Assembly: GCF_965641715.1 (NCBI RefSeq)
Contig: NZ_OZ282453.1
DNA from: Escherichia coli
GTDB taxonomy: Bacteria; Pseudomonadota; Gammaproteobacteria; Enterobacterales; Enterobacteriaceae
Reading direction: 5' to 3' (one strand)
DNA length: 64,000 bases
Shown: one piece after another, positions 26,055 through 64,000 of the stretch
Layout: each line of letters starts with the position of its first letter
Numbering within the stretch: the first letter of the stretch is position 1
Notes under the pieces: model-generated
What the model was told of the DNA's origin: nothing
Seen by the model: only the letters and a program-made list of their open reading frames with translations
The model's database searches: none
Made by a program: the position numbers and the translations under genes

Positions 26055-27271
26055 AGGTCGGCTTCTTTTTACTGAAATTTCCGTTGTCGTCGGAAACCTT
26101 CGTTCTTAACCAAATCACTGCGTTTATTGATATGGGATTTGAGGTGGAGATTATCGCGCTGCAAAAAGGCGACACACAAAACACCCACGCGGCATGGACG
26201 AAATACAACCTTGCTGCCAGAACCCGCTGGTTACAGGACGAACCTACGGGCAAAGTGGCGAAACTGCGCCACCGCGCCAGCCAGACCTTACGCGGCATTC
26301 ATCGTAAAAATACCTGGCAGGCGCTCAACCTCAAACGCTATGGTGCTGAGTCGCGGAACCTGATTTTGTCTGCCATTTGCGGTCAGATCGCAACACCATT
26401 TCATGCCGATGTCTTTATCGCTCATTTTGGCCCTGCGGGGGTAACCGCAGCAAAACTACGCGAACTGGGTGTCATTCGCGGCAAAATTGCCACTATCTTT
26501 CACGGTATTGATATCTCCAGTCGGGAAGTGCTCAACCACTACACTCCCGAATATCAACAACTGTTTCGCCGTGGCGACCTGATGTTACCGATAAGCGATT
26601 TGTGGGCCGGAAGGCTGCAAAAAATGGGCTGCCCGAGGGAAAAAATCGCCGTATCGCGCATGGGCGTGGACATGACGCGCTTTAGCCCGCGTCCGGTGAA
26701 AGCGCCCGCAACGCCGCTGGAAATCATCTCCGTCGCACGCTTAACCGAAAAAAAAGGCCTGCATGTGGCGATCGAAGCCTGCCGTCAGTTGAAAGAGCAG
26801 GGCATGGCATTTCGCTATCGCATCCTCGGCATTGGCCCGTGGGAACGACGCCTGCGTACCCTCATCGAACAATATCAACTGGAAGATGTGGTAGACATGC
26901 CGGGCTTTAAACCGAGCCACGAAGTGAAAGCGATGCTCGACGACGCGGATGTCTTCCTGTTGCCATCGGTAACGGGCGCGGATGGCGATATGGAAGGTAT
27001 TCCGGTGGCGCTAATGGAAGCGATGGCGGTCGGCATTCCGGTGGTTTCTACTCTGCATAGCGGAATACCGGAATTGGTGGAGGCCGATAAATCCGGCTGG
27101 CTGGTGCCTGAGAACGATGCTCGCGCACTGGCACAACGTCTGGCGGCGTTTAGCCAACTGGACACCGACGAACTGGCTCCGGTCGTCAAACGTGCGCGCG
27201 AAAAAGTCGAACACGATTTTAACCAGCAGGTGATCAATCGAGAACTCGCCAGCTTGCTGCAAGCTTTATAG
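26051..27271 (+). CDS. wcaL: Colanic acid glycosyltransferase (GT4)
   Basis: 406 aa; GT4 EX7E region (...[19 protein letters not shown]...); start overlaps the wcaK stop. Confidence 0.9.
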
Positions 27272-27281
27272 AGGAGAACGC

Positions 27282-28676
27282 ATGCCATTTAAAACACTCT
27301 CCCGACGCACCTTCCTGACGGCAAGCTCGGCGCTTGCCTTCCTCCATACCCCTTTCGCTCGCGCACTTCCCGCCCGACAAAGCGTTAACATTAACGACTA
27401 CAACCCTCACGACTGGATCGCCTCATTTAAACAAGCCTTCAGCGAAGGGCAAACGGTCGTCGTGCCTGCTGGATTCGTTTGTGACAATATCAACACCGGC
27501 ATCTTCATCCCTCCCGGCAAAACGTTACACATCCTTGGAAGCCTGCGCGGCAACGGCAGAGGGCGATTTGTCTTACAGGACGGCAGCCAGGTGACAGGGG
27601 AGGAGGGCGGCAGTATGCATAACATCACCCTGGATGTGCGAGGCTCTGACTGCACCATCAAAGGGCTGGCGATGAGCGGCTTTGGTCCGGTAACGCAGAT
27701 TTATATCGGCGGCAAAAACAAACGGGTCATGCGCAACCTGACCATCGATAATCTCACCGTTAACCACGCTAATTACGCTATTTTGCGCCAGGGATTTCAT
27801 AACCAGATTATCGGTGCCAACATCACCAACTGTAAATTTAGTGATTTACAGGGCGACGCCATTGAATGGAACGTGGCGATTAACGACCGTGATATTTTGA
27901 TATCTGACCATGTCATCGAGCGCATCAACTGTACCAACGGCAAAATCAACTGGGGCATCGGCATAGGTCTTGCGGGAAGCACTTATGATAATAATTACCC
28001 GGAAGACCAGGCAGTGAAAAACTTTGTCGTGGCGAATATCACGGGAACGGATTGTCGGCAGTTGATCCATGTTGAAAATGGTAAACATTTTGTTATTCGT
28101 AATATCAAAGCCCGCAATATCACGCCGGATTTCAGTAAGAAAGCAGGTATTGATAACGCGACGGTCGCTATTTACGGTTGTGACAATTTCGCAATTGATA
28201 ATATTGAAATGATTAATAGCGCCGGGATGTTAATCGGCTATGGGGTAATTAAAGGCAAATATCTCTCGATACCGCAAAATTTCCGAGTGAATAATATTCA
28301 ACTGGATAACACCCATCTTGCTTATAAATTGCGCGGCATCCAAATCTCCGCTGGGAATGCCGTCTCCTTTGTGGCGCTGACTAACATTGAGATGAAGCGT
28401 GCGTCGCTGGAGTTACACAACAAACCGCAACACCTTTTTATGCGTAATATCAAGGTGATGCAGGAATCCTCAGTTGGACCCGCATTGAGCATGAACTTCG
28501 ACATGCGCAAAGACGTTCGCGGCGTCTTTATGGCGAAAAAAGAAACACTGCTGTCTCTTGCAAATGTTCATGCGGTGAATGAAAAAGGGCAAAGCTCCGT
28601 CGATATCGACAGAGTTAATCACCATATTGTTAATGTGGAAAAGATTAACTTTAGATTGCCGGAACGGAGGGAGTAG
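27282..28676 (+). CDS. wcaM: Colanic acid biosynthesis protein WcaM (predicted periplasmic, Tat-type signal)
   Basis: 464 aa; N-terminus [28 protein letters not shown] carries a twin-arginine motif; last gene of the operon. Confidence 0.85.
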
Positions 28677-28850
28677 ATTTGCGACCATTCCTGGAAAAAT
28701 GGAGCCATACTTAGGAACAATGCTACTGCAATCCACAACGAAGCGGCGTAACATCACAAGTAATTCAGTAATCAATTCAGGGTAATTGATGCTGGCGAAA
28801 AAAATCGAACAAGCTATAATTCAGCAACCATTTTACAGGTGGATGAAATA

Positions 28851-29744
28851 ATGACGAATTTAAAAGCAGTTATTCCTGTAGCGGGTCTTGGGATGCATAT
28901 GTTGCCTGCCACTAAGGCGATTCCCAAAGAGATGCTACCGATCGTCGACAAGCCAATGATTCAGTACATTGTTGACGAGATTGTGGCTGCAGGGATCAAA
29001 GAAATCCTCCTGGTAACTCACGCGTCCAAGAACGCGGTCGAAAACCACTTCGACACCTCTTATGAGTTAGAGTCTCTCCTTGAACAGCGCGTGAAGCGTC
29101 AGCTGCTGGCGGAAGTGCAGTCCATCTGTCCACCGGGCGTGACCATTATGAACGTGCGTCAGGGCGAACCTTTAGGTTTAGGCCACTCCATTTTGTGTGC
29201 ACGACCCGCCATTGGTGACAATCCATTTGTCGTGGTGCTGCCAGACGTTGTGATCGACGACGCCAGCGCCGACCCGCTGCGTTACAACCTTGCTGCCATG
29301 ATTGCACGTTTCAATGAAACGGGCCGCAGTCAGGTGCTGGCAAAACGTATGCCGGGTGACCTCTCTGAATACTCGGTCATCCAGACCAAAGAACCGCTGG
29401 ATCGCGAAGGTAAAGTCAGCCGCATCGTCGAATTTATCGAAAAACCGGATCAGCCGCAGACGCTGGACTCAGACATCATGGCCGTTGGTCGCTATGTGCT
29501 TTCTGCCGATATTTGGCCGGAACTGGAACGTACTCAGCCTGGTGCATGGGGGCGTATTCAGCTGACTGATGCCATCGCTGAACTGGCGAAAAAACAGTCC
29601 GTTGATGCCATGCTGATGACAGGTGACAGCTACGACTGCGGTAAAAAAATGGGCTATATGCAAGCGTTCGTGAAGTATGGGCTACGCAACCTCAAAGAAG
29701 GGGCGAAGTTCCGTAAAGGGATTGAGAAGCTGTTAAGCGAATAA
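28851..29744 (+). CDS. galF: UTP-glucose-1-phosphate uridylyltransferase-like protein GalF
   Basis: 297 aa from [30 protein letters not shown]; conserved 5-prime flank of O-antigen clusters. Confidence 0.95.
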
Positions 29745-63188: not shown

Positions 63189-63396
63189 TAGGTTAAATCC
63201 GTTATTTCTGCTGTCTGCCAGAGTATCAAATATCACCGTGCTAATCAGCTTTAGCGCGATAATTTGACAGCGAGTGGCAACAGATCATGTCAGATAAAAA
63301 TGAGAGGGTAGTCACATTTTCTTGCACTTTATTCCAGCCAGTTCATAAGTATTTCCGTAAAAAGAACAGCTATTTGAAACTCCTGAGGGTTTGCTG

Positions 63397-64000
63397 TTGA
63401 AACGCCGTCTTATTATTGCTGCTTCTTTGTTCGTTTTTAACTTATCGTCTGGTTTTGCGGCGGAAAACATTCCTTTTTCACCTCAGCCTCCAGAGATTCA
63501 TGCCGGGTCCTGGGTACTGATGGATTACACCACCGGACAGATCCTCACCGCGGGTAATGAGCATCAACAGCGCAATCCCGCCAGCCTGACAAAGCTGATG
63601 ACGGGTTATGTCGTGGATCGCGCTATCGATAGTCATCGCATTACGCCAGACGATATTGTCACCGTGGGGCGCGATGCGTGGGCGAAAGATAATCCGGTGT
63701 TTGTCGGTTCTTCACTGATGTTTTTGAAAGAGGGCGATCGCGTATCGGTACGTGATTTAAGCCGTGGTTTAATTGTTGATTCCGGAAATGACGCTTGTGT
63801 TGCTCTGGCTGACTATATTGCCGGTGGGCAACGGCAGTTTGTTGAAATGATGAACAACTATGCCGAGAAGCTGCATCTCAAGGATACGCATTTTGAAACA
63901 GTGCATGGCCTGGATGCGCCAGGTCAGCATAGCTCGGCTTATGATTTAGCTGTGCTTTCTCGTGCTATCATCCACGGCGAGCCCGAGTTTTATCATATGT
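63397..64000 (+). CDS. dacD: D-alanyl-D-alanine carboxypeptidase (PBP6b), N-terminal part; 3-prime end outside the window
   Basis: TTG-initiated frame reading MKRRLIIAASLFVFNLSSGFAAENIPFSPQPPEIH... with active-site SLTKLM; not in the ORF track because it lacks a stop inside the window. Confidence 0.85.
   Translation, partial: MKRRLIIAASLFVFNLSSGFAAENIPFSPQPPEIHAGSWVLMDYTTGQILTAGNEHQQRNPASLTKLMTGYVVDRAIDSHRITPDDIVTVGRDAWAKDNPVFVGSSLMFLKEGDRVSVRDLSRGLIVDSGNDACVALADYIAGGQRQFVEMMNNYAEKLHLKDTHFETVHGLDAPGQHSSAYDLAVLSRAIIHGEPEFYHM

What the first reader, a model, noticed from the sequence alone, without database searches (positions are those of the whole stretch)
27282..27370. WcaM N-terminus carries a twin-arginine (Tat) signal motif
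The sequence [22 protein letters not shown] matches the S/T-R-R-x-F-L Tat consensus followed by a hydrophobic stretch and an AxA cleavage site. This suggests WcaM is exported folded to the periplasm, which is informative for its still poorly defined role in colanic acid assembly.
Basis: partly seen in the sequence, partly recalled or inferred. Interest (0 to 1): 0.2.

Follow-up and report, generated by a model that had tools for sequence, protein, structure and literature searches.

The report
Known Tat export signal on WcaM
The last gene of the E. coli colanic acid slime cluster, wcaM, does start with a twin-arginine (Tat) export signal, which is already documented; the more useful result is that the exported protein is a relative of the enzymes phages use to cut colanic acid.

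Summary
The ORF at 27282..28676 (+) is E. coli WcaM (NCBIfam equivalog, 1021 bits). It begins [28 protein letters not shown]|LPARQ.

The Tat reading is supported:
- The strict motif occurs once among 149 ORFs in the window.
- The hydrophobic core is as weakly hydrophobic as accepted E. coli Tat leaders and well below Sec leaders.
- Across 80 distinct leaders of the family, RR is kept in 100%, the F two residues later in 90% and the next L/I/V in 94%, while the rest varies.

It is not new. WcaM is listed as a Tat substrate in published genome surveys and tables. A published TatP prediction covers a leader that differs from this one at one residue.

Beyond the finding, mature WcaM is a confident right-handed beta-helix. 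It is homologous to phage colanic-acid-degrading tailspikes: Phi92 gp150, E 7e-25 by sequence and TM 0.75 by fold; PHROG "colanic acid degradation", E 8e-53. Three motifs, including D192, E195, H263 and E265, are kept in 94-100% of both phage and cellular relatives.

The best reading is a Tat-exported, folded colanic acid glycanase acting in the periplasm, analogous to Pantoea WceF. Export route and enzyme activity were not testable here.

Interest is low for the Tat signal and moderate for the functional lead.

The parts
27271..27276 (+). Shine-Dalgarno sequence GAGGAG, 5 nt upstream of the wcaM ATG and overlapping the last base of the wcaL stop codon (TAG 27269-27271)
   Evidence: Read directly from the sequence; wcaL ORF end.
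27282..27365 (+). Predicted Tat signal peptide of WcaM, residues 1-28 ([28 protein letters not shown]). Predicted signal peptidase I cleavage lies after A28, between 27365 and 27366.
   Evidence: Disordered in the AF2 model: pLDDT is below 50 for residues 1-30. Same leader apart from K5T as the published TatP prediction.
27300..27317 (+). Twin-arginine core S7-R8-R9-T10-F11-L12
   Evidence: R8 and R9 are invariant and F11 is at least 90% conserved in 32 orthologs. In 80 distinct leaders, RR is kept in 100%, F in 90% and L/I/V in 94%.
27318..27353 (+). h-region, residues 13-24 ([12 protein letters not shown]). It is weakly hydrophobic and rich in Ser, Thr and His.
   Evidence: Best 12-residue Kyte-Doolittle window is 1.62, against 1.76 +/- 0.20 for 22 E. 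coli Tat leaders and 2.39 +/- 0.30 for 12 Sec leaders.
27354..27365 (+). c-region F-A-R-A, with Ala at -3 and -1 and a basic residue (R27) at -2, the type of residue associated with Sec avoidance
   Evidence: R27 and A28 are at least 90% conserved in alignment A1. A small-x-small site 11-28 residues after RR is present in 130 of 130 family members.
27366..28673 (+). Mature WcaM, residues 29-464: a right-handed parallel beta-helix homologous to phage colanidase tailspikes
   Evidence: AF2 mean pLDDT 82 and pTM 0.83, all-beta rungs. Foldseek top hit 6e0v, E 2e-11, TMq 0.75. phmmer against 6e0v, E 7e-25. phrog_6117, E 8e-53 over residues 86-460.
27852..27872 (+). Conserved motif G191-D192-A-I-E195-W-N197, holding candidate catalytic carboxylates
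   Evidence: D192 is kept in 97% of phage-type and 100% of distant cell-type representatives, E195 in 95% and 94%, N197 in 97% and 94%.
27948..27977 (+). Conserved motif N223-W224-G-I-G-I-G-L-A-G232
   Evidence: G225 is 100% and 100%, G229 95% and 100%, W224 89% and 81%. The motif also aligns with gp150.
28056..28076 (+). Conserved motif R259-Q-L-I-H263-V-E265
   Evidence: H263 and E265 are 100% conserved in both groups.
28674..28676 (+). wcaM stop codon

Best explanation
wcaM encodes a precursor whose first 28 residues are a twin-arginine signal peptide.

Proposed mechanism: the protein folds in the cytoplasm into a right-handed beta-helix. TatBC recognises the S-R-R-T-F-L core. The folded protein crosses the inner membrane through the Tat translocase, and signal peptidase I cuts after A-R-A28. 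The mature 436-residue protein then acts in the periplasm, or further out, as a colanic-acid-specific glycanase related to phage colanidase tailspikes. It would trim or clear polymer made by the Wzx/Wzy/Wza-Wzc machinery encoded by the same operon.

Shown here: the leader and its selective conservation, the beta-helix fold, the homology to phage colanidases, and the conserved acidic and histidine motifs.

Taken from the literature: WcaM's status as a listed or predicted Tat substrate.

Inferred: actual Tat dependence, the cleavage position, the final location, catalytic activity and the physiological role.

My estimates are about 0.9 for Tat targeting and about 0.55 for colanic acid glycanase activity.
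For: Leader features:
- The S-R-R-x-F-L core is present and unique in the window.
- The h-region hydrophobicity (1.62) falls within the Tat set (1.76 +/- 0.20) and outside the Sec range of 1.99-3.07.
- In 32 orthologs, the only invariant leader columns are M1, R8, R9 and L18. F11, R27 and A28 are at least 90% conserved, so the recognised Tat determinants make up most of the conserved leader positions.
- In 80 distinct leaders, RR is 100%, F 90% and L/I/V 94%, while neighbouring positions vary.
- Eleven distant cell-type relatives, mostly around 30-40% identical, also carry RR leaders.
- The Pfam TAT_signal score of the leader alone is 17.6 bits, level with the canonical substrate SufI at 17.7.

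Published support: a TatP prediction (PMC7549933), a TATFIND-based table (PMC3027627) and Tat substrate tables (PMC8262268 and PMC9604234).

Function:
- phmmer against Phi92 gp150 gives E 7e-25, and a profile gives 2e-27.
- Foldseek's top hit is the 'colanidase tailspike protein gp150', TMq 0.75.
- phrog_6117 'colanic acid degradation' gives E 8e-53.
- 244 phage records, almost all from hosts that make colanic acid, carry homologs annotated as colanidase or colanic acid degradation.
- D192, E195, H263 and E265 are kept in 94-100% of both phage and cellular members.
- Distant Tat-bearing relatives lie in polysaccharide synthesis clusters.

Precedent: Pantoea WceF is a Tat-signal-bearing, tailspike-like stewartan hydrolase encoded in its EPS cluster, and its loss lengthens the polymer (PMC7949094).
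Against: - No localisation or tat-mutant data specific to WcaM could be read here. The substrate lists mix predicted and verified entries.
- Profile models do not call the leader. Pfam TAT_signal scores 12.1 bits on the full protein and 17.6 on the leader, against a cut-off of 22.7, and no NCBIfam Tat-signal model appeared among the hits at E <= 1. The same test misses 7 of 9 accepted E. coli Tat leaders, including TorA.
- The leader lacks the consensus Lys after F-L; it has Thr.
- Five distant family members use Sec or lipoprotein-like leaders, so the fold does not strictly need Tat.
- Salmonella workers use wcaM deletions as colanic-acid-deficient strains. A purely degradative enzyme does not obviously predict that. 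Precedents such as AlgL, where a lyase is needed for polymer production, are cited in the reference list of PMC7949094.
- No colanidase activity has been shown for WcaM.
- The catalytic residues of gp150 were not available to me.
Confidence: 0.85

Rival explanations
1. The leader is functionally a Sec signal peptide, or is used by both pathways, and the RR pair is not what directs export.
For: RR alone does not make a Tat signal: the DacD leader in this same window is MLLKRRLIIAASLFVFNLSSGFA. The Pfam TAT_signal score is below the cut-off. PMC8262268 cites work showing some native Tat leaders (AmiA, AmiC, SufI) can use Sec to some extent. Five distant family members carry Sec or lipoprotein-like leaders.
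Against: The WcaM h-region (1.62) is well below every Sec leader tested (minimum 1.99) and below DacD (2.46). A basic residue at -2 of the c-region is conserved. RR is 100% and the following F 90% conserved across 80 divergent leaders, which is hard to explain without Tat recognition. TatP and TATFIND both call it Tat.
Confidence: 0.08
2. WcaM is exported by Tat but is not an enzyme. It is a colanic-acid-binding, lectin-like or scaffold protein that assists assembly or export at the Wza-Wzc complex, in line with its 'biosynthesis protein' name.
For: wcaM deletions are used as colanic-acid-deficient strains in Salmonella, which suggests a positive role in production. WceF shows lectin-like agglutination with its polymer and slow cleavage (PMC7949094). 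Beta-helix tailspike folds bind long glycan stretches. No activity has been reported for WcaM.
Against: The residues most strictly shared with active phage colanidases are carboxylates and a histidine (D192, E195, H263 and E265, 94-100%). That pattern is expected of a retained active site rather than of a binding surface alone. Binding and catalysis are also not mutually exclusive.
Confidence: 0.25
3. The leader is not cleaved and acts as an N-terminal signal anchor that tethers WcaM to the periplasmic face of the inner membrane.
For: Cleavage was not tested. The +2 residue is Pro (L29-P30), and some Tat substrates are known to stay membrane-anchored (general knowledge).
Against: An A-x-A or small-x-small site at a conserved distance from RR is present in 130 of 130 family members. 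The h-region of about 12-16 weakly hydrophobic residues is short for a stable transmembrane helix.
Confidence: 0.05
4. The motif is a chance occurrence and WcaM is cytoplasmic.
For: None beyond the sub-threshold profile scores.
Against: The chance expectation is about 1.4e-4 per protein. The motif is conserved down to about 30% identity. It is followed by a hydrophobic stretch and a cleavage motif in all members. A colanic-acid-directed beta-helix has no polymer substrate in the cytoplasm.
Confidence: 0.02

Closest known systems
E. coli K-12 / Salmonella WcaM (b2043 / STM2099), a listed Tat substrate
   Same: It is the same gene: an NCBIfam equivalog at 1021 bits, 97-98% identical to common E. 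coli WcaM clusters, at the same position between wcaL and galF. The leader is the same apart from K5T.
   Different: Only allelic differences. This allele is uncommon: 1 of 4657 genomes is at least 99% identical over wcaL-galF.
Phage Phi92 gp150 colanidase tailspike (PDB 6E0V) and PHROG 6117 'colanic acid degradation'
   Same: Homologous beta-helix core, with sequence E 7e-25 and fold TMq 0.75. The motifs GDAIExN, NWGIGIGxAG and RQxxHVE are shared. The presumed substrate, colanic acid, is the same.
   Different: Phage proteins are 550-1000 aa, with N-terminal virion-attachment domains and no signal peptide: 41 of 41 long representatives have none. WcaM has a Tat leader in place of the adaptor and is encoded by the cell that makes the polymer. 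Identity is only about 25-40%.
Pantoea stewartii WceF (and Erwinia homologs), a stewartan hydrolase
   Same: It is encoded inside a Wzx/Wzy-type EPS cluster, carries a Tat signal, and has a right-handed beta-helix tailspike-like fold. It acts on the cell's own exopolysaccharide, and a knockout lengthens the chains (PMC7949094).
   Different: No detectable sequence relationship. WceF structures are absent from the phmmer and profile hits at E <= 10 and E <= 1, and from the top 50 Foldseek hits. WceF is 736 aa and a proven trimer and hydrolase; neither property is known for WcaM.
Canonical cofactor-less E. coli Tat substrates (SufI, AmiA, AmiC, MepK/YcbK)
   Same: An envelope-acting protein with no evident cofactor and a leader of similar length, hydrophobicity and Pfam score; SufI scores 17.7 bits against 17.6 for WcaM.
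   Different: The mature domain is unrelated. The wcaM deletion shows no virulence defect in ExPEC, with a competitive index of 0.89, not significant.

Membership tests
Twin-arginine (Tat) signal peptides | Consecutive Arg-Arg within an S/T-R-R-x-F-L-(K) core at the boundary of the n- and h-regions | tested here: met
   S7-R8-R9-T10-F11-L12 is present. The Lys position is Thr. RR is 100% conserved in 80 distinct leaders.
Twin-arginine (Tat) signal peptides | h-region less hydrophobic than in Sec leaders, and a longer leader overall | tested here: met
   The best 12-residue Kyte-Doolittle window is 1.62, against 1.76 +/- 0.20 for Tat and 2.39 +/- 0.30 for Sec. Length is 28 aa, against means of 32.8 for Tat and 22.4 for Sec.
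Twin-arginine (Tat) signal peptides | A-x-A signal peptidase I site, often with a basic residue in the c-region | tested here: met
   A26-R27-A28 is present, and R27 and A28 are at least 90% conserved in A1. The basic c-region residue is found in only 54 of 104 family members that have A-x-A.
Twin-arginine (Tat) signal peptides | Score above the curated cut-off of the profile models (Pfam PF10518; NCBIfam Tat-signal model, which I recall as TIGR01409) | tested here: inconclusive
   The score is 12.1 bits on the full protein and 17.6 on the leader, against a cut-off of 22.7. No NCBIfam Tat-signal model appeared at E <= 1. In the control, only 2 of 9 accepted E. coli Tat leaders pass, and TorA, FhuD and YcbK get no hit. 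The models are therefore too insensitive to decide.
Twin-arginine (Tat) signal peptides | Classification as Tat by dedicated predictors (TatP, TATFIND, SignalP 6) | not testable with these tools
   Not run here. Published TatP 1.0 output lists the K5 variant of this leader (PMC7549933). A TATFIND-based table marks wcaM as Tat-positive (PMC3027627).
Twin-arginine (Tat) signal peptides | Export depends on tatABC or tatC and on the RR pair in vivo | not testable with these tools
   [quoted passage not shown] From memory, a 2007 JBC survey by Tullman-Ercek et al. tested the leader in reporter fusions, but I could not retrieve it.
WcaM (NCBIfam NF007517 / TIGR04004; Pfam PF27800) | Full-length match above the equivalog cut-off | tested here: met
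   1021.3 bits against a cut-off of 808, and 969.2 against 794.6. Homologs carry PF27800.
WcaM (NCBIfam NF007517 / TIGR04004; Pfam PF27800) | Last gene of the colanic acid (wca/cps) operon, between wcaL and galF | tested here: met
   ORF order in the window and the annotation of matching E. coli genomes.
Phage colanidase tailspikes (Phi92 gp150, PHROG 6117) | Homologous beta-helix catalytic domain with the family's conserved motifs | tested here: met
Phage colanidase tailspikes (Phi92 gp150, PHROG 6117) | N-terminal virion-attachment module, with the protein being a structural part of a phage tail | tested here: not met
   WcaM begins with a signal peptide and the helix starts at about residue 31. 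It lies in a chromosomal biosynthesis operon. It is therefore a cellular homolog of the enzymatic domain, not a tailspike.
Phage colanidase tailspikes (Phi92 gp150, PHROG 6117) | Cleaves colanic acid | not testable with these tools
WceF/AmsF-type EPS-cluster glycanases | Sequence or close structural homology to WceF | tested here: not met
   No WceF chain appears in the PDB sequence or profile hits, or in the top 50 Foldseek hits. The resemblance is functional and architectural only.

The most novel reading that the evidence does not exclude
WcaM is an active, host-encoded colanidase. It is a domesticated or ancestral counterpart of the phage tailspike enzyme, folded (possibly oligomerised) in the cytoplasm, exported by Tat, and used by the cell to set colanic acid chain length or to clear polymer stalled in the periplasm. 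That would give a biochemical function to a colanic acid operon gene that the pathway summary I read leaves unassigned. It would also explain why phages of colanic-acid-producing Enterobacteriaceae carry the same domain, through gene exchange between host EPS clusters and phage receptor-binding proteins.
Probability: 0.5. Interest if true: 0.45.

Novelty: already known. Interest (0 to 1): 0.2.

Why it matters
The Tat signal only confirms textbook-level annotation of a known E. coli Tat substrate.

The value lies in combining it with what the mature protein is. A colanidase-like beta-helix delivered folded to the periplasm gives a concrete, testable function for WcaM, which a 2022 summary of the colanic acid pathway leaves unassigned (PMC9143390). 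It also places WcaM with the self-polymer hydrolases and lyases cited in the WceF paper, such as WceF and AlgL, which are encoded inside exopolysaccharide clusters.

It also matters practically. Salmonella studies use wcaM deletions as 'colanic-acid-negative' strains. If WcaM trims the polymer rather than building it, those phenotypes need re-reading.

Tried and rejected
- **Primary paper not retrieved.** I tried to fetch the signal-peptide survey I remember (Tullman-Ercek et al. 2007, JBC) by DOI and by the PMC id I recalled, and the Phi92 genome paper by PMC id. None is held. What I recall of them is not used as evidence.
- **Profile HMMs as a Tat test.** The scores are below the cut-offs. 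I rejected this as evidence against Tat after the control showed that 7 of 9 accepted E. coli Tat leaders also fail.
- **Prior statement of the WcaM-colanidase link.** Several literature searches found none. The closest is a phage paper that mentions a 'wcaM superfamily protein' (PMC6141743). Phage genome annotations do, however, use both 'colanic acid degradation' and 'colanic acid biosynthesis protein' for these homologs, so the similarity is recognised in databases in practice.
- **WceF membership.** I considered filing WcaM as a WceF family member and rejected it, because no sequence or close fold match exists.
- **Spatial clustering of conserved residues.** I tried to measure whether D192, E195, H263 and E265 cluster in the model, but the coordinates are not exposed to the sandbox. 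Only the rung periodicity argument remains.
- **Alternative start codons.** None is plausible.

Full report
**1. The observation**

The window is E. coli chromosome. The stretch 27000-28900 matches 4657 of 5426 complete E. coli genomes and is annotated wcaL-wcaM-galF. The best match is strain S56 at 99.1%, and the surrounding locus is the complete colanic acid operon followed by galF, the O-antigen cluster, gnd, ugd, wzzB and his.

ATG at 27282 opens a 464-codon ORF ending at 28676. A GAGGAG Shine-Dalgarno lies 5 nt upstream and overlaps the last base of the wcaL stop codon.

The product is WcaM by NCBI's equivalog models: NF007517 scores 1021 bits against a cut-off of 808, and TIGR04004 scores 969 bits. 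Its first 28 residues are [28 protein letters not shown], followed by LPARQ. The quoted peptide is therefore real and at the stated coordinates. The finding's end coordinate overshoots the predicted cleavage site by about 5 nt.

**2. Is it more than chance, and is it Tat-like?**

- Among 149 six-frame ORFs of at least 80 aa in the window, the strict pattern [ST]RRxF[LIVM] in the first 40 residues occurs only here. It occurs once in 30,351 aa overall. Composition gives about 1.4e-4 per protein.
- I compared the leader with 22 E. coli Tat leaders tabulated in PMC7549933 and with 12 textbook Sec leaders. Its most hydrophobic 12-residue window (Kyte-Doolittle 1.62) lies inside the Tat distribution (1.76 +/- 0.20) and below the whole Sec range (1.99-3.07).
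- An internal control sits in the same window. The truncated dacD gene at 63391 encodes the leader MLLKRRLIIAASLFVFNLSSGFA. It has an RR pair but a strongly hydrophobic core (2.46), so it looks Sec-type.
- The WcaM c-region is F-A-R-A, with Ala at -3 and -1 and a basic residue at -2.

**3. Conservation**

- In an alignment of 32 orthologs (75-97% identity), the only invariant leader columns are M1, R8, R9 and L18. F11, R27 and A28 are at least 90% conserved. The recognised Tat determinants (RR, the F two residues later, the c-region basic residue and the -1 Ala) thus make up most of the conserved leader positions.
- In 80 distinct RR-anchored leaders from 130 family members, RR is 100%, the F two residues later 90%, the next L/I/V 94% and S/T before RR 92%. 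The h-region residues drift.
- An exhaustive search of 1.84 billion representative proteins found only about 190 representatives. Of the 27 whose beta-helix starts where WcaM's does, 11 have RR leaders, 5 have Sec or lipoprotein-like leaders and 11 have none recognisable. The 11 RR-bearing proteins are mostly about 30-40% identical to WcaM.
- All 41 representatives with long N-terminal extensions have no signal peptide.

**4. Profile models**

Pfam TAT_signal scores 12.1 bits on the whole protein and 17.6 on the leader alone, against a cut-off of 22.7. No NCBIfam Tat-signal model appeared.

I calibrated this on nine accepted E. coli Tat leaders. Only CueO and NapA pass. SufI (17.7), AmiA (18.9), AmiC (14.4) and MdoD (22.1) fall short, and TorA, FhuD and YcbK are not detected at all. 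The sub-threshold score therefore carries no weight against the Tat reading.

**5. What is already known**

- WcaM is marked Tat-positive in E. coli (b2043) and Salmonella (STM2099) in a table based on the TATFIND genomic survey (PMC3027627).
- TatP 1.0 predicts [28 protein letters not shown] as a Tat signal in ExPEC PCN033, where the wcaM deletion had no virulence defect (PMC7549933).
- WcaM appears in the Salmonella Tat substrate table (PMC8262268).
- It was over-expressed as a Tat substrate in PMC9604234.

[quoted passage not shown] I could not retrieve the primary reporter-fusion study, so I cannot cite WcaM-specific export data.

**6. What the exported protein is**

- The AlphaFold2 model (mean pLDDT 82, pTM 0.83) has a disordered leader at residues 1-30 and then a right-handed parallel beta-helix to the C-terminus.
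- By sequence alone, WcaM residues 163-349 match phage Phi92 gp150 at E 7e-25. A family profile gives 2e-27, and there is no other credible PDB hit.
- Foldseek's best PDB match is the same entry, titled 'colanidase tailspike protein gp150 of Phage Phi92' (E 2e-11, TMq 0.75). It is well ahead of generic beta-helix enzymes such as the Sf6 and P22 tailspikes, alginate epimerases and lyases, and polygalacturonases.
- Against PHROGs, WcaM residues 86-460 match phrog_6117 'colanic acid degradation' at E 8e-53. The long relatives from the representative search match the same family and also carry N-terminal tail-fibre or tailspike modules.
- In annotated phage genomes, 244 records encode a homolog: Escherichia 160, Salmonella 20, Cronobacter 17, Klebsiella 13, Kosakonia 7 and Enterobacter 6. 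Typical names are 'colanic acid degradation' and 'colanidase tailspike'.

**7. Candidate active site**

I aligned 38 phage-type and 16 distant cell-type representatives to a WcaM-family HMM. Three motifs are shared by both groups:

| Motif | Conservation, phage-type / cell-type |
|---|---|
| G-D192-A-I-E195-x-N197 | D192 97% / 100%; E195 95% / 94% |
| N-W224-G-I-G-I-G-x-A-G232 | W224 89% / 81%; G225 100% / 100%; G229 95% / 100% |
| R259-Q-x-x-H263-V-E265 | H263 100% / 100%; E265 100% / 100% |

The motifs are spaced about 36 residues apart. They fall on the equivalent short strands of three successive rungs (E194-197, E226-229 and E262-265 in the DSSP listing), so they should stack on one face of the helix. 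Strictly conserved carboxylates and a histidine are what a retained glycanase active site would look like.

**8. Context of distant relatives**

- A 41%-identical Tat-bearing relative (P0123) lies inside a colanic-acid-like cluster with WcaD, a WcaJ-type transferase, gmd/fcl-like genes, a NUDIX protein and a pyruvyl transferase.
- Three relatives at roughly 29-36% identity lie next to glycosyltransferases and acyltransferases.

The pairing of a Tat leader, a WcaM-family beta-helix and a polysaccharide synthesis cluster is thus older than the Enterobacteriaceae.

**9. Most likely mechanism**

WcaM folds in the cytoplasm, where no polymer exists, and is recognised through S-R-R-T-F-L. It is moved folded across the inner membrane by Tat and cut after A28. 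It then acts on colanic acid polymer in the periplasm or beyond.

The closest functional precedent is Pantoea stewartii WceF. It is a tailspike-like trimeric beta-helix with a Tat signal, encoded in the stewartan cluster. It hydrolyses stewartan, and its loss lengthens the polymer (PMC7949094). WceF is not detectably homologous to WcaM, so this is an analogy and not family membership.

Why Tat rather than Sec is inference. Beta-helix tailspike-like proteins may need cytoplasmic folding or oligomerisation. The five Sec-type relatives show this is not absolute.

**10. Points that do not fit neatly**

Salmonella laboratories use wcaM deletions as colanic-acid-deficient strains. That suggests a positive role in production, which a simple degradative enzyme does not predict. 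A binding or scaffold role, or a requirement for a lyase or hydrolase for productive export (as cited for AlgL in the reference list of PMC7949094), would both accommodate it. A 2022 summary of the pathway assigns roles to the other operon products it discusses but gives none for WcaM (PMC9143390).

**11. Verdict**

The homology of mature WcaM to phage colanidases, with conserved catalytic-looking residues, is a worthwhile functional lead. I did not find it stated in the searchable literature, although phage annotation already reflects it. I estimate Tat targeting at about 0.9 and colanic acid glycanase activity at about 0.5-0.55.

Noticed in passing
window 63391-64000 (+): A truncated dacD gene (NCBIfam NF008489, matching positions 1-202 of the 389-position model) encodes the leader MLLKRRLIIAASLFVFNLSSGFA. 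It has an RR pair but a strongly hydrophobic core (Kyte-Doolittle 2.46 against 1.62 for WcaM). It serves as an in-window example that RR alone does not make a Tat signal.
   Followed up: partly
window 27000-28900: This wcaL-wcaM-galF allele is uncommon. Only 1 of 4657 matching E. coli genomes (strain S56) is at least 99% identical, 3876 are 95-99% and 756 are 90-95%. That fits recombination next to the O-antigen locus.
   Followed up: no
hits H7 and H8 (E. coli O145:H28 RM12761 and RM13516), the region matching window 27000-28900: In these strains the wcaL-wcaM-galF stretch is interrupted by an IS1B-family element and a hypothetical protein; the match splits into two pieces.
   Followed up: no
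protein P0062: A 761-aa protein joins WcaJ-type domains (PF13727, PF02397) to a WcaM domain that is 95% identical to the query. It is probably a deletion fusing wcaJ to wcaM, or an assembly or gene-call artefact.
   Followed up: no
protein P0051: A WcaM 76% identical to the query is labelled Vagococcus sp. WN89Y, a Firmicute. The assembly is most likely contaminated or mislabelled.
   Followed up: no
proteins P0142, P0188, P0190, P0208 and P0228: Five distant cellular WcaM-family representatives carry Sec-like leaders in place of RR; two (P0188, P0208) have a Cys just after the hydrophobic core, which may mark a lipoprotein. The export route has been swapped within the family.
   Followed up: partly
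phage hits H18 (phage BF17) versus H17, H19 and H20: Homologous phage genes are annotated 'colanic acid biosynthesis protein' in one record and 'colanic acid degradation' in others. The name has been transferred in both directions between host WcaM and phage colanidase.
   Followed up: no
L001 28639-29546 (E. coli S56): In the closest genome, the O103-family O-antigen polymerase gene wzy is annotated as frameshifted and partial. I did not check whether the window shares this.
   Followed up: no
L002 10001-11344: In assembly GCA_000737915.1, the 41%-identical Tat-bearing WcaM homolog sits between gnd and a WcaJ-type gene, on the opposite strand to the rest of a colanic-acid-like cluster.
   Followed up: partly
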